The notes beneath the pieces were generated by a model. The model did no database searches, was not told where the DNA came from, and saw only the letters and a list, made by a program, of their open reading frames with translations. The position numbers and the translations under genes were made by a program. DNA of 64,000 nt from a virus, in IMG/VR virus record IMGVR_UViG_3300005613_000028, positions 1-64,000 of that record, one strand, 5' to 3'. Position 1 is the stretch's first letter. Each line of letters starts with the position of its first letter. This document shows, piece by piece, positions 10,007-64,000 of this stretch.

Positions 10007-10030
10007 GTGAGGGGATTAAATTCCCCTCAC
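10007..10030 (+). terminator. GC-rich hairpin after the capsid gene
   Basis: GTGAGGGGA / TCCCCTCAC, 9-bp stem with a 6-nt loop. It is one of the most GC-rich stems I noticed. No U-tract follows, so it may attenuate transcription or stabilise the RNA. Confidence 0.5.
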
Positions 10031-13955: not shown

Positions 13956-13981
13956 GGGAGAGAAGGTAAAACTTCTCTCCC
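13956..13981 (+). terminator. GC-rich hairpin after the major tail gene
   Basis: GGGAGAGAAG / CTTCTCTCCC, perfect 10-bp stem with a 6-nt loop. Confidence 0.5.
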
Positions 13982-61751: not shown

Positions 61752-61916
61752 TTATGAATAAAAATCTCTTGTATCTATTGCTTGTGCTATATTCTCAATC
61801 ATATCAGCCAAAATTTTTATAGATTTATCTATCTCCATTATATCATAATCATCTGAACATATTACTGGTAATGTTTCTCGTTGCTCCTGAATTTTCTTCA
61901 ATACTGTCTTTATCAT
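61752..61916 (-). CDS. 54-aa hypothetical protein, first gene after promoter P4 (not in ORF track)
   Basis: AAAGGA 7 nt upstream of ATG 61916. MIKTVLKKIQEQRETLPVICSDDYDIMEIDKSIKILADMIENIAQAIDTRDFYS. Confidence 0.45.
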   Translation of the reverse strand: MIKTVLKKIQEQRETLPVICSDDYDIMEIDKSIKILADMIENIAQAIDTRDFYS

Positions 61917-61938
61917 TGAACATTCCTTTCTTATATTA

Positions 61939-61967
61939 AGTATAACATATTATTCTTTAGGTGTCAA
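61939..61967 (-). promoter_or_regulatory. sigma70-type promoter P4
   Basis: - strand reads TTGACACCTAAAGAATAATATGTTATACT. -35 at 61967-61962, -10 at 61944-61939. Confidence 0.75.
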
Positions 61968-62058
61968 CCCCTGTAAAATCATGTAAGAAAAGGTATAAAA
62001 CTGTACAAAATGTAAGTTTTTGCACTCTACCTATGTTAATATATGTAACTAAATGACA

Positions 62059-62105
62059 TGAATTGCAGAAATATGCAATTCAAAACATGTCGGATTAACA
62101 ATCCG
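62059..62105. promoter_or_regulatory. inverted repeats sharing a TGCAATT core (operator- or iteron-like)
   Basis: TGAATTGCA-gaaata-TGCAATTCA (9-bp arms, 62059-62082), then hairpin CGGATT-aac-AATCCG (62091-62105) followed by another GCAATT (62105-62110). Confidence 0.45.
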
Positions 62106-62138
62106 CAATTTATTTTTGCATTTCGTTTTTTACTACCT

Positions 62139-62253
62139 AAAAGAAGTTAATAAATTAACTTCTTTTCTTAATAAAAGAGTTATATAATATACTCTTTAAA
62201 TAAAAGACATAAATTTATGTCTTTTTTATAAAAAGATATACAAAGTATATCTT
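62139..62253. terminator. array of four consecutive A/T-flanked hairpins (bidirectional terminator-like)
   Basis: AAAAGAAGTTAA-taaa-TTAACTTCTTTT (62139-62166); AAAGAGT..ACTCTTT (62174-62197, imperfect); perfect 24-nt palindrome AAAAGACATAAATTTATGTCTTTT (62202-62225); AAGATATAC-aaa-GTATATCTT (62233-62253). Each starts with TAAAAGA-like and ends with TCTTTT-like sequence. Confidence 0.55.
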
Positions 62254-62275
62254 AATAAATATTGATTACATATAG

Positions 62276-62878
62276 TTATATAGTATAGTCAAATTTTTCG
62301 CAATTTAAGTTGACTAAATTCTTCAAAATCTTCCCTTGACCTTTAATTTCCTTTTTTAATGTTTTAACTCTTTTCATAACTATAATTATATCAGTATATT
62401 TGCTAAGCATATTAGCTTTATTTGATAAATAAGGGTTTAAAATAATTAAAATAGTTCGATTTTTCTTAACTTTTTCTCTTAATAATTTTAAATTTTGGTC
62501 AAATTGAGTATAATCCCCATTTAATGGTAAAAGATTCAATACAGAGTCAATGACAGTGATTGAGAGGTATTTTAAGAGGGGTTCTTGAGATAAGATGTCA
62601 AAGGTTTCTTGTGGGCTTTGAGGCTGTAATAATAAAGTTTGATGATTTATCAAATTATGATCTAAATTATAGTCTGCATCTACATATAATCCTTGCCCAT
62701 CTTGATTCTGTATATTGTTCAATAAATTAATGCTAAATTTAACTATCCCAGAATTATGAAGCCCTCTTAGTTCAATTATAGAACATTTAGGAATATCTAA
62801 GAATTCTGTTTTAAAAACAGGGATTTCTTTAGGTTTAGATTTTTTTAAGATTTGGTTTTCGAAATCTTTAAGAGCCAT
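62276..62878 (-). CDS. RecA-core paralog with degenerate Walker A
   Basis: 'CSIIELRGLHNSGIVKFSINLLNN..GLYVDADYNLD' aligns with RecA 'GRIvEiyGpeSSGKTTLaL....g...fIDaEhAlD' but lacks the P-loop GK[ST]. Walker B-like 'ITVIDSVLNLLP'. Confidence 0.5.
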   Translation of the reverse strand: MALKDFENQILKKSKPKEIPVFKTEFLDIPKCSIIELRGLHNSGIVKFSINLLNNIQNQDGQGLYVDADYNLDHNLINHQTLLLQPQSPQETFDILSQEPLLKYLSITVIDSVLNLLPLNGDYTQFDQNLKLLREKVKKNRTILIILNPYLSNKANMLSKYTDIIIVMKRVKTLKKEIKGQGKILKNLVNLNCEKFDYTI

Positions 62879-63857
62879 CTTTATCCTTTCTCCATCTCTC
62901 CATTACTGGATGGCGTGGTAAATCTTTAGCCCCTATTAACATTCCTTTATACTCTATCCATCTTCCAATATAAGTTTCTCTATTCTTCCAAATTTTTTCT
63001 TTTTCAATGTCGGTCATAGCAATTACTACTTTTAAATCTTTTCCTTCATATTTAACTAAAAAAGCGGAAGCCTTTTCAATTAAAATTCTATCATCTTTCT
63101 TTTTACTTGTAACACTCCTCCCAAGCTCATTGGTTTTCTTTTCTGCATTTGGGTCAACTTTTGTAGCTTGGATAACATTTATAATTTTAGCATCAAAGGT
63201 TCTGTAAGGTTTGAGCTTGAATACATTTTGTTCTTTCAGCGTACATCTTCCACACTTATATTTTCCTTGTGGATTTCTAAGAATTAATCCTTCCTCTCCA
63301 TTATCTAATGCTATATCAAAATGTTTTTCAATTTCTTCTTTACTATGTAATAAATATTCTTGAACAGAATACATTATTTCTGGAAATAACATAGCTATGG
63401 TTTCTACTAATTGAACTCTATCAATAAAAGGTGTATCTAAATTATCATCTTTAATAGCGTCAAAACAATGAAATTTTAAATGTTCTGGTGTCTTTTTTAT
63501 TTCTCCATATTTTTTGATTGATTTAGGGTCAGAAAAATCCATTGTCATGACAAAAGAAACAATCTCTTGAAATGTTAAATCTGGAGAATAAATTTCTCCA
63601 TCTAAAATTAAATTATATTCTTTAGTATAATCTGCAAGAGGTTGAAGTTTTTTTCTTAATTGTTTATTTTGAATTTGTTTTAAAGAACGAGAGAGAATTT
63701 CTCCTTTATATAAGATACACCTAATTCCGTCAATCTTATTTGAAATTAACAGAGGGTAATTTATCTCGTCTAGGTTTGGTTGTTGATTTGGTGCAAGAAG
63801 CGGAGTGAATTTAGGTTTCATATGTGCCTCCATATTTTTCTGTGTATAATTTCCCAC
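62868..63857 (-). CDS. ATP-dependent DNA ligase
   Basis: Motif I 'SNKIDGIRC', III 'LILDGEIY', IV 'EGLILRNP', V 'VFKLKP'. The likely true start is ATG 63821 (GGAGG 5 nt upstream, ATGA overlap). Confidence 0.85.
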   Translation of the reverse strand: MGNYTQKNMEAHMKPKFTPLLAPNQQPNLDEINYPLLISNKIDGIRCILYKGEILSRSLKQIQNKQLRKKLQPLADYTKEYNLILDGEIYSPDLTFQEIVSFVMTMDFSDPKSIKKYGEIKKTPEHLKFHCFDAIKDDNLDTPFIDRVQLVETIAMLFPEIMYSVQEYLLHSKEEIEKHFDIALDNGEEGLILRNPQGKYKCGRCTLKEQNVFKLKPYRTFDAKIINVIQATKVDPNAEKKTNELGRSVTSKKKDDRILIEKASAFLVKYEGKDLKVVIAMTDIEKEKIWKNRETYIGRWIEYKGMLIGAKDLPRHPVMERWRKDKDGS

Positions 63858-64000
63858 ACAGTTGTTTTATTTAGCTTAAAGCGTTCAGCTAATTCTCTCA
63901 TATTATGAAATGGAAAACTTTTTCTTATAAATTTAACATCTTTTTCAGTTAATTTACTCCAAGAACATTCTTCTCCTCTAACCATAATATGTAATTTCAT
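63818..64000 (-). CDS. HTH protein of the type found in HNH/NUMOD4 homing endonucleases, possibly truncated by the window edge
   Basis: 'SWSKLTEKDVKFIRKSFPFHNMRELAERFKLNKTTVWEIIHRKIWRHI' matches the (a)KLte.dV..IR....s...lA..f.vs...i..I..g..W pattern. The ORF touches nt 64000. Confidence 0.45.
   Translation of the reverse strand: MKLHIMVRGEECSWSKLTEKDVKFIRKSFPFHNMRELAERFKLNKTTVWEIIHRKIWRHI

What the first reader, a model, noticed from the sequence alone, without database searches (positions are those of the whole stretch)
61968..62275. A ~300-nt noncoding region with TGCAATT inverted repeats and four tandem hairpins, possibly an origin, terminator bank or regulatory hub
This is the largest gap in an otherwise overlap-packed genome. 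Read on the + strand, it begins with repeated ATGTAA(G/C) and TTTTTGCA words. Next comes a 9-bp-arm inverted repeat, TGAATTGCA/TGCAATTCA at 62059-62082, then a CGGATT/AATCCG hairpin followed by a third GCAATT. It ends with four back-to-back hairpins at about 30-nt spacing (62139-62253). Each hairpin is built on an AAAAGA...TCTTTT frame but has a different interior, and one is a perfect 24-nt palindrome. The A-tract/T-tract symmetry makes each hairpin a potential bidirectional intrinsic terminator. Four in a row is more than termination needs. The array-like regularity with variable cores is not explained by any annotated feature. The region lies directly upstream of promoter P4. Candidate roles are a replication origin, a packaging or protein-binding site, an sRNA locus, or a genome-end-proximal insulator.
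Basis: seen in the sequence. Interest (0 to 1): 0.62.

Follow-up and report, generated by a model that had tools for sequence, protein, structure and literature searches.

The report
Phage operon-boundary hairpin bank plus promoter
The 359-base gap in this uncultured phage is a conserved boundary between two leftward gene blocks, where a row of hairpins most likely stops or insulates transcription and a consensus promoter then restarts it; this is a fairly ordinary arrangement, and the one new detail is a small covarying hairpin.

Summary
Region 61917-62275 is the largest ORF-free gap in the window and the most structured of the genome's 17 largest gaps (z about -5.7).

All neighbouring genes are on the - strand. 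Read in that direction, the gap contains:
- the stop of a RecA-like gene;
- four AT-rich hairpins flanked by A/T tracts;
- a conserved A-rich box followed by a 6-bp hairpin (G1);
- the TGAATTGCA inverted repeat;
- a near-consensus extended -10 promoter, one of 6-7 near-identical copies in the genome.

Five related metagenomic lineages keep the same layout after the RecA-like gene. The hairpin sequences turn over, with compensatory changes. The TGCAATT repeat and about 105 nt around it occur only in this phage.

The best reading (about 0.6) is a tandem terminator or insulator bank followed by a restart promoter. Each hairpin is weak by E. coli criteria, and the U-tracts are not strand-consistent among relatives.

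An origin is unlikely. There are no iterons, no DnaA boxes and no skew shift, and a better candidate control region lies at 77.5-78.6 kb. The site is not near a genome end: the record is 86.9 kb.

Overall this is a new member of a known kind, of low to moderate interest.

The parts
62276..62878 (-). RecA-like ORF (200 aa), the last gene of the upstream leftward block. Its stop codon TAA is at 62276-62278.
   Evidence: ORF list. Pfam RecA PF00154, E 9.8e-7. Homologues with 38-68% identity sit in the same position in the relatives.
62233..62253 (-). Hairpin T1, the first after the stop. It has a 9-bp stem and a 3-nt loop. On the - strand it reads AAGAUAUAC-UUU-GUAUAUCUU followed by UUUAU.
   Evidence: Inverted repeat I24. 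Folds (-7.5 kcal/mol). An orthologue with a 1-nt deletion is present in L008.
62202..62225 (-). Hairpin T2, a perfect 24-nt palindrome: AAAAGACATAAATTTATGTCTTTT.
   Evidence: -8.8 kcal/mol. The orthologue in L008/L009 reads GACCTAAATTTAGGTC, which is one compensatory pair change.
62173..62197 (-). Hairpin T3, imperfect: 7 bp, a bulge, then 3 bp.
   Evidence: Folds. Its core is 88% identical to the 3' end of the RecA-like ORF (D1).
62139..62166 (-). Hairpin T4, with 13-bp perfect arms. It is the longest perfect stem in the genome.
   Evidence: I7. (-10.0 kcal/mol).
62106..62123 (-). Conserved A-rich box, AAATGCAAAAATAAATTG on the - strand, immediately 5' of hairpin G1.
   Evidence: Alignments A2 and A3. 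Present in W, L008, L012, L181 and, diverged, in L184.
62086..62105 (-). Hairpin G1 (CGGATT-GTT-AATCCG, 62091-62105) plus its conserved 3' flank ACATG (62086-62090). It occurs once per genome.
   Evidence: Four of 6 pairs show compensatory changes, 96.7% of cells are paired, and 0 of 500 shuffles reach this. Covariance model R1 hits only here in the whole genome (46.9 bits, E 4e-7) and once in each relative.
62059..62082 (-). Hairpin G2, the TGAATTGCA/TGCAATTCA inverted repeat (9-bp arms, 6-nt loop). The sequence is specific to this phage. L008 and L184 have an unrelated hairpin at the same relative position.
   Evidence: I23. Fold at -11.1 kcal/mol. Alignment A2 places it within about 105 nt that the relatives lack. 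Hairpins TTTCAA..TTGAAA and TGTTCA..TGAACA in the relatives.
61971..62016 (.). Two imperfect direct repeats on the + strand: CTGTAAAATCATGTAAG (61971-61987) and CTGTACAAAATGTAAG (62001-62016). The first abuts the -35 box. They are candidate regulator sites and are specific to this phage.
   Evidence: Read from the sequence. They lie in the W-only insertion. No test of binding was possible.
61939..61967 (-). Near-consensus promoter: TTGACA, 17 nt, TG-extended TATACT. It is followed by the Shine-Dalgarno sequence AAAGGA and the ATG at 61916.
   Evidence: Promoter scan, 11 of 12 matches plus TG. It is one of 6-7 near-identical copies in the genome and is conserved at this junction in all relatives.
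61752..61916 (-). 54-aa ORF, the first gene of the downstream transcription unit. This slot varies among relatives.
   Evidence: ORF list. Synteny comparison: L009 has no gene in this slot, L012 has a 43-aa ORF, and L008 has seven extra small ORFs.

Best explanation
The gap is a conserved boundary between two leftward (- strand) transcription units of an uncultured 87-kb phage with 28% GC.

Proposed mechanism:
1. Transcription of the upstream block (RuvB-like, integrase-like, HNH endonuclease, DNA ligase, RecA-like) reaches the stop codon at 62276.
2. Twenty-two nt later it meets four back-to-back AU-rich hairpins (T1-T4), each framed by an A-tract and a U-tract. Two hairpins richer in GC follow (G1, G2).
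3. Each hairpin alone is a weak intrinsic terminator. In series they should stop most RNA polymerase molecules, in either direction because of the A/T symmetry. They should also give the upstream mRNA a nuclease-resistant 3' end.
4. About 170 nt further on, a near-consensus extended -10 sigma-70-type promoter (61967-61939) restarts transcription for the nucleotide-metabolism and replication genes. The bank therefore insulates that unit from read-through.

Shown here: the hairpins, their statistical excess, their conservation by position and structure with compensatory changes, and the conserved promoter.

Inferred: termination, insulation and mRNA stabilisation.

The single-copy element G1 (A-rich box, covarying 6-bp stem, ACATG) is under selection for structure. 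Its specific role is unknown; it could be a final terminator, a processing site or a binding site.
For: - Gene orientation: all ORFs from 25 kb to 78 kb are on the - strand.
- Position: the hairpins begin 22 nt after the stop of the RecA-like gene and lie upstream of the promoter.
- U-tracts: on the - strand each of T1-T4 is followed by a run of 4-5 U.
- Structural excess: z is -5.6 and -7.3. This is the most structured of the 17 largest gaps in the genome. Four of the genome's 19 perfect stems of 9 bp or more lie within 200 nt here.
- Conservation: five related lineages, with 38-68% identity in the RecA-like protein, keep a 130-280-nt gap after that gene containing 2-4 AT-rich hairpins, further hairpins and the same promoter. 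Every one of these intervals folds better than shuffles (z from -2.9 to -7.4).
- Compensatory changes: T2 shows one (GACAT/ATGTC versus GACCT/AGGTC). G1 shows them at 4 of 6 pairs.
- Specificity: other copies of the promoter in the genome and in L012 have no hairpin bank in front of them.
- Precedent: tandem hairpins less than 50 nt apart are a recognised terminator class, 'U-shaped' or 'V-shaped' in WebGeSTer DB (PMC3013805). Stem-loop plus strong sigma-70-like promoter cassettes are proven terminator/promoter units in T4-type phages (PMC2839356).
Against:
- The stems have only 1-2 G-C pairs per arm (-7.5 to -10 kcal/mol). All score below zero (-9 to -21) on the E. coli-trained d'Aubenton-Carafa score, whose formula I recalled from memory. 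Only one hairpin in the genome, at 78435 on the + strand, scores above zero.
- The U-tracts are not conserved. In L008 and L009 the T runs are better on the antisense strand, and in L012 and L181 the hairpins have no U-tract on either strand.
- G1 has no sense-strand U-tract in L012 and L181.
- The host, and therefore its termination rules, is unknown.
- The bank is 14.8% GC. That would also suit a DNA-unwinding element.
Confidence: 0.6

Rival explanations
1. The region is a replication origin. The 115-nt hairpin bank (15% GC) would serve as the unwinding element. The hairpins or palindromes would be initiator or primase signals. The adjacent promoter, or the incoming transcript, would supply transcriptional activation or an R-loop primer.
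For: The bank is extremely AT-rich at 14.8% GC. The site lies among recombination and replication genes: ligase and RecA-like upstream, exonucleases, helicase and polymerase downstream. It is positionally conserved and single-copy. Phage origins that combine a promoter with an AT-rich segment are known, for example the T7 primary origin and T4 oriF (from my own knowledge).
Against: No iterons: TRF finds no array, and the only direct repeats are short two-copy families. No DnaA box within 1 mismatch. GC and AT skew are the same on both sides of 62 kb, and the only switches are at 25 kb and 78 kb. The promoter points away from the AT-rich bank. The primary sequence turns over among relatives while only hairpin potential is kept, which fits RNA structure better than an initiator site. 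The 77.5-78.6 kb divergent region has more repeats and operator-like sites and is a better origin or control candidate.
Confidence: 0.1
2. The core of the region is a dedicated cis-regulatory element: G1 with its A-rich box, possibly together with G2 and the phage-specific direct repeats. It would be an RNA processing site, an antitermination-type site or a protein-binding site that controls passage from the upstream unit into the downstream unit. On this reading the AT-rich hairpins are secondary.
For: G1 has a conserved box and flanks (AAATGC..AAnTTG, stem, ACATG). Four of its 6 pairs covary, with 0 of 500 shuffles reaching the observed value. It occurs exactly once per genome, always at this junction. 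Its distance to the promoter varies from 10 to 120 nt, which fits an RNA element better than a promoter-proximal operator.
Against: Only five sequences (four distinct stems) support the covariation. One lineage, L009, lacks G1 and has a different hairpin there. There is no Rfam match. No cognate factor was identified. The element could simply be the last terminator of the bank.
Confidence: 0.12
3. The hairpins and palindromes act at the DNA level as recombination joints. They could be PeSL-like linker sequences for cassette shuffling, or target sites of the conserved small tyrosine recombinase encoded just upstream.
For: Gene content differs among relatives exactly on both sides of this junction. 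A 270-aa Phage_integrase-family protein is conserved 0-3 genes upstream of the RecA-like gene in every lineage. T2 and T4 can be read as 9-11-bp inverted arms around a 6-bp centre. PeSL stem-loop and promoter cassettes mediate shuffling in T4-type phages (PMC2839356).
Against: The stem-loops are not repeated at the other promoter copies, so the composite cassette is not a dispersed repeat. The four palindromes differ from one another and among relatives, which is unlike a recombinase core site. No empty or filled site pair, and no circular product, was seen. Compensatory changes are explained just as well by RNA hairpins.
Confidence: 0.06
4. A small antisense transcript on the + strand ends here. 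G1 followed by its U-rich tail (CAAUUUAUUUUUGCAUUU on the + strand) would be its terminator, and the AT-rich hairpins would be back-up terminators for that direction.
For: On the + strand G1 is followed by a U-rich tail in all five lineages. In L008 and L009 the AT-rich hairpins have better T runs on that strand.
Against: No conserved + strand promoter is found in any lineage. In L012 and L181, G1 abuts the -35 box, so there is no room for a gene. The small + strand ORFs (31 and 30 aa) lie in the W-only insertion. Three nt (CAA) separate the stem from the U run.
Confidence: 0.06
5. The region marks physical genome ends or a packaging site.
For: Three short contigs of relatives (L179, L180, L182) stop within 11-30 nt after the RecA-like stop codon, at the start of the hairpin bank.
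Against: The record assembles through the site and closes with a 123-bp terminal overlap elsewhere. Longer contigs of relatives also run through it. Palindromes and extreme AT content are a common cause of assembly breaks. The terminase genes lie about 26 kb away across the record's junction.
Confidence: 0.02

Closest known systems
Tandem ('U-shaped' and 'V-shaped') intrinsic terminators as catalogued in WebGeSTer DB (PMC3013805)
   Same: More than one hairpin lies within 50 nt of the next, starting within 50 nt of a stop codon. The individual hairpins are either followed by a U-trail or are 'I-shaped', meaning they lack one.
   Different: There are four to six hairpins in a row rather than two. 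The stems are very AT-rich (-7.5 to -10 kcal/mol, against a database median of about -18). The symmetric A/T frames make them look bidirectional although no convergent gene exists. No experimental 3' ends are available.
PeSL (promoter-early stem-loop) cassettes of T4-type phages RB49 and phi1 (Arbiol et al. 2010, PMC2839356)
   Same: A strong, nearly identical sigma-70-like promoter is repeated in the genome and combined with an upstream stem-loop that acts as a terminator or attenuator. The cassette sits at a junction where related phages differ in small ORFs.
   Different: PeSLs number about 50 per genome, and each carries its own stem-loop, usually a GGGG/CCCC stem. Here there are only 6-7 promoters and a single hairpin bank. 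The stems are AT-rich. No mini-circles or recombinant junctions were observed.
The tL2 cluster of terminators (tL2a-d) in the pL operon of coliphage lambda (Luk and Szybalski 1983; cited from memory, not checked here)
   Same: A cluster of about four successive terminators lies inside a long leftward early operon, just downstream of recombination genes.
   Different: Lambda passes these terminators by N-mediated antitermination from nut sites. No N or nut analogue was identified here, and a restart promoter follows the bank instead.
Promoter-associated phage replication origins (T7 primary origin, T4 oriF/oriG; from my own knowledge)
   Same: A strong promoter lies next to a very AT-rich segment within the DNA-metabolism region.
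   Different: In those origins the AT-rich segment lies downstream of the promoter. Here it lies upstream, and the promoter fires away from it. There is no skew change and there are no iterons.

Membership tests
Canonical (L-shaped) Rho-independent terminator | Stable, G+C-rich stem-loop | tested here: not met
   T1-T4 have 1-2 G-C pairs per arm and fold at -7.5 to -10 kcal/mol. Their d-scores are -9 to -21, all below the zero threshold. G1 and G2 contain 3 G-C pairs.
Canonical (L-shaped) Rho-independent terminator | U-tract (more than 3 U in the 10 nt after the stem) on the transcribed strand | tested here: inconclusive
   Met for T1-T4 in the window on the - strand. Not met for most hairpins of L008, L009, L012 and L181 on the sense strand.
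Canonical (L-shaped) Rho-independent terminator | Located just downstream of a stop codon at the end of a transcription unit | tested here: met
   T1 starts 22 nt after the TAA of the RecA-like ORF, and a promoter follows.
Canonical (L-shaped) Rho-independent terminator | RNA 3' ends mapped at the U-tract | not testable with these tools
Tandem (U- or V-shaped) terminators, WebGeSTer definition | [quoted passage not shown] | tested here: met
   Intervals between T1, T2, T3 and T4 are 4-7 nt, and G1 and G2 follow within 35 nt. The definition is quoted from PMC3013805.
PeSL-type regulatory cassette | Strong sigma-70-like promoter, nearly identical at many sites in the genome | tested here: met
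   Six near-identical copies plus one looser copy of TTGACACC-N9-ATATGTTATACTT.
PeSL-type regulatory cassette | Each promoter copy is coupled to its own stem-loop, so the composite element is dispersed | tested here: not met
   The other promoter copies lie in or next to coding sequence with no hairpin bank. The G1 model hits only once in the genome.
Replication origin | Iterons or initiator boxes | tested here: not met
   TRF finds no array. There is no DnaA box within 1 mismatch. Only two-copy short direct repeats are present.
Replication origin | AT-rich unwinding element | tested here: met
   62139-62253 is 14.8% GC, against 28% for the genome.
Replication origin | Strand-composition switch at the site | tested here: not met
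   GC skew is -0.25 to -0.40 on both sides of 62 kb. It switches only at 25 kb and 78 kb, together with gene orientation.
Repeat-array RNAs (CRISPR-like or anti-CRISPR repeat units, type III antitoxin repeats) | Near-identical direct repeat units | tested here: not met
   The units are less than 70% alike. TRF reports no array with a 28-34-nt period, the unit alignment has 70% mean column identity, and there is no Rfam hit.

The most novel reading that the evidence does not exclude
The single-copy G1 element may be a previously undescribed cis-acting structured element of this phage group. It consists of the A-rich box AAATGC..AAnTTG, a covarying 6-bp stem and the flank ACATG, and it always lies between the hairpin bank and the restart promoter. 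It could be a processing or antitermination signal that decides whether early transcription continues into the DNA-metabolism block. Alternatively, together with the 15% GC hairpin bank, it could be the phage's replication origin.
Probability: 0.15. Interest if true: 0.5.

Novelty: new member of a known kind. Interest (0 to 1): 0.27.

Why it matters
The finding defines the main internal transcription boundary of a 53-kb leftward gene arm in an uncultured phage lineage that has no cultured relatives.

It shows that a bank of individually weak, AT-rich, symmetric hairpins is kept by selection on structure rather than on sequence. That is useful for annotating terminators in very AT-rich phages, where predictors trained on E. 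coli fail.

It also marks a junction where gene content varies among relatives.

The small covarying G1 hairpin is a concrete, testable candidate regulatory motif. None of this changes a general concept.

Tried and rejected
**Searches for relatives**
- Megablast and blastn against GenBank phages found no relatives of the region.
- Peptide-pattern scans of IMG/VR, JGI metagenomes and GTDB genomes with the RecA-like protein, its alignments and the 126-aa ORF found nothing beyond the loci already obtained through the search for homologous proteins.
- My first DNA pattern for the conserved box was mis-specified for the window's own copy and returned about 100 chance hits.
- The promoter pattern returned 58 unrelated IMG/VR contigs.

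**Readings tested and rejected**
- Rfam: nothing relevant. tRNA or tmRNA: none.
- Conserved antisense promoter: none.
- TRF array: none.
- DnaA boxes: none.
- Skew-based origin signal: none.
- Coding potential in the gap: two + strand ORFs of 30-31 aa lie in the window-specific insertion and are not conserved.
- A possible -10-like ATATACTT inside the first hairpin of four lineages has no usable -35 box.

**Not possible**

**Literature**
- Full-text searches for tandem terminators in phages gave little.

Full report
**Context**

The window is the first 64 kb of an 86,880-bp IMG/VR virus record that closes on a 123-bp terminal overlap. The GC content is about 28%. Genes on the + strand run from 78.5 kb through the record's junction to 25 kb. 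Genes on the - strand run from 78.3 kb down to 25.2 kb. The finding therefore lies inside a 53-kb leftward arm and must be read on the - strand. It is not near a genome end.

**The observation**

All the listed repeats and hairpins are present at the stated coordinates. The gap 61917-62275 (359 nt) is the largest in the window and the second largest in the record by a rough ORF call.

- It folds far better than dinucleotide shuffles: z is -5.6 on the - strand and -7.3 on the + strand.
- It is the most structured of the 17 largest gaps in the genome.
- Perfect hairpins with stems of 8 bp or more are no more common genome-wide than in shuffled sequence (46 against 35-51).
- Four of the 19 perfect stems of 9 bp or more lie within 200 nt here, as do two of the three stems of 11 bp or more. 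The Poisson probability is about 1e-4 genome-wide.
- TRF does not see a tandem repeat. The four units are less than 70% alike, although U1/U2 and U3/U4 look like diverged duplicates.

**Anatomy in the direction of transcription**

1. The RecA-like ORF (62878-62276; Pfam RecA) ends the upstream block. An ATP-dependent DNA ligase precedes it. Beyond the window's end come an HNH/NUMOD4 endonuclease, a small tyrosine recombinase and a RuvB-like ATPase.
2. Twenty-two nt after the stop come hairpins T1 (62253-62233), T2 (62225-62202), T3 (62197-62173) and T4 (62166-62139). Each has an AAAAGA...TCTTTT frame and is followed by a run of 4-5 U on the - strand.
3. Next is the box AAATGCAAAAATAAATTG (62123-62106), the 6-bp hairpin G1 (62105-62091) and the flank ACATG.
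4. Next is the TGAATTGCA inverted repeat, G2 (62082-62059).
5. About 90 nt follow, containing two imperfect direct repeats.
6. The promoter is TTGACA, 17 nt, TG-extended TATACT (61967-61939). A Shine-Dalgarno sequence and a 54-aa ORF follow.

The promoter is one of six near-identical copies in the genome, at 28480-, 40890-, 59871-, 61967-, 78585+ and 83131+. A looser copy lies at 77613-.

**Relatives**

GenBank phages and IMG/VR hold no close relative. Homologues of the RecA-like protein in the large protein collection led to metagenomic contigs of five further lineages with a readable junction, at 38-68% protein identity. Synteny was confirmed by tblastn.

Every lineage keeps a 130-280-nt non-coding interval at this junction. 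In L181 an extra 179-aa ORF separates the RecA-like gene from the interval. Each interval ends in the same promoter, and each folds better than shuffles (z from -2.9 to -7.4).

The hairpins themselves turn over:
- T1 and T2 have orthologues in L008 and L009. T2 carries a compensatory change (GACAT/ATGTC to GACCT/AGGTC).
- The other positions are filled by unrelated hairpins.
- The TGAATTGCA repeat and about 105 nt around it occur only in this phage. L008 and L184 do have a different hairpin at the same relative place.

So selection acts on hairpin potential, not on sequence.

**The G1 element**

The box, the 6-bp stem and the ACATG flank are alignable in five lineages. The stems read CGGATT/AATCCG, TGCTCT/AGAGCA, CGCATT/AATGCG (twice) and CGCTC/GAGCG.

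- Four of 6 pairs change on both sides, 96.7% of cells pair, and no shuffle or slid register approaches this.
- A covariance model finds it exactly once in this genome and once per relative, always at this junction. L009 lacks it.
- Its distance to the -35 box ranges from 10 to about 120 nt. That argues against a promoter-proximal operator.
- There is no Rfam match.

**Are the hairpins terminators?**

In favour: the position after the stop codon, the U runs in the window, the restart promoter, the conservation, and the fact that no other promoter copy has such a bank.

Against:
- The stems are very AT-rich. On an E. coli-trained score (formula recalled from memory) every hairpin is below threshold. 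Only one hairpin in the genome, at 78435 on the + strand, passes.
- The U-tracts are not strand-consistent among relatives. In L008 and L009 they are better on the antisense strand, and L012 and L181 have none.

This pattern fits individually weak, orientation-agnostic hairpins used in series. It also fits 'I-shaped' hairpins without U-trails, like the strong GC hairpins after structural genes at 10007 and 13956, which also lack U-tracts. WebGeSTer DB recognises tandem hairpins less than 50 nt apart as a terminator class (PMC3013805). In T4-type phages, stem-loops next to strong sigma-70-like promoters (PeSLs) have been shown to terminate transcription (PMC2839356).

**Origin and other rivals**

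- Origin: there is no skew change at 62 kb, no DnaA box and no iterons. The promoter fires away from the AT-rich bank. The 14.8% GC of the bank is the only origin-like trait. The divergent region at 77.5-78.6 kb, outside the window, has more repeats, a canonical terminator and duplicated operator-like palindromes. It is a better candidate for the control or origin region.
- Antisense RNA: no conserved antisense promoter supports a + strand small RNA ending at G1.
- Genome ends: three short contigs of relatives break at the start of the bank. I attribute this to assembly trouble at AT-rich palindromes, because longer contigs read through.
- Recombination: gene content differs among relatives on both sides of the junction, and a tyrosine recombinase is always nearby. 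A recombination-joint role cannot be excluded, but nothing shows it.

**Verdict**

The region is a conserved operon-boundary module: a bank of weak, symmetric hairpins, most likely tandem terminators or insulators that also stabilise mRNA 3' ends, then a small covarying hairpin element, then a consensus restart promoter. It is a new member of a known kind. The origin, genome-end and TGCAATT emphases are not.

Noticed in passing
window 61968-62085: About 105 nt between G1 and the promoter occur only in this phage. They hold the TGAATTGCA inverted repeat and two imperfect direct repeats (CTGTAAAATCATGTAAG at 61971-61987 and CTGTACAAAATGTAAG at 62001-62016). The first repeat abuts the -35 box. 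This is a possible lineage-specific operator set.
   Followed up: partly
G000 77500-78620 (outside the window; locus L186): The divergent region between the two gene arms is 21-28% GC. It holds several hairpins, including AATCACTAGTAA/TTACTAGTGATT and a diverged second copy. It also holds the only canonical terminator in the genome (AGACCCCTAGGGTCTTTTTT at about 78435, + strand) and two operator-like repeats (TGTTGTAAATTTACTACA and TGTTGTAATTATACTACA, 27 nt apart) just upstream of the promoter at 78585. It is a likely early control region and a better origin candidate.
   Followed up: partly
G000 83131-83502 (outside the window): A consensus promoter at 83131 (+) is followed by about 300 structured nt (z -3.5). 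These end in a hairpin with a T run at 83445-83468, before the next + strand gene at 83503. This could be a long leader, an attenuator or a small RNA unit.
   Followed up: no
window 63818-64000, continuing to G000 64324: A 168-aa NUMOD4 plus HNH_3 homing-endonuclease ORF lies between the tyrosine-recombinase gene and the ligase gene. L009-L011 have no gene in this slot, which suggests a mobile insertion.
   Followed up: partly
G000 64541-65353 (outside the window) and loci L008-L012, L182, L184: A small (about 270 aa) Phage_integrase-family tyrosine recombinase is conserved next to the RuvB-like and RecA-like genes in every relative of this otherwise lytic-looking phage. Its role is unknown; dimer or concatemer resolution and integration are both possible.
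   Followed up: no
loci L179, L180, L182: Independent short metagenomic contigs of relatives end 11-30 nt after the RecA-like stop codon, inside the first hairpin. This is probably assembly breakage at AT-rich palindromes.
   Followed up: partly
window 62178-62194 and 62274-62290: The core of hairpin T3 (AGTTATATAATATACTC) is 88% identical to the last codons of the RecA-like ORF (AGTTATATAGTATAGTC). The hairpin may have arisen by duplication of the gene's 3' end, or this may be a chance match in AT-rich DNA.
   Followed up: no
window 10007-10030 and 13956-13981; G000 85117-85139: The strongest hairpins in the genome (-15 to -20 kcal/mol, GC-rich) lie after + strand structural genes and have no U-tract. 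They may be I-shaped terminators or elements that stabilise mRNA 3' ends.
   Followed up: partly
window 62216-62240: The 3' arm of T2 and the 5' arm of T1 are 10/11 complementary (I16). Because of the shared frames, neighbouring hairpins can pair in an alternative register, which allows an attenuator-like competing fold.
   Followed up: no
G000 66775-67026 (outside the window; locus L187): This apparent 252-nt gap contains a small - strand ORF with a good Shine-Dalgarno sequence (AAAGGAGAATAATATG...), so it is probably not non-coding.
   Followed up: no
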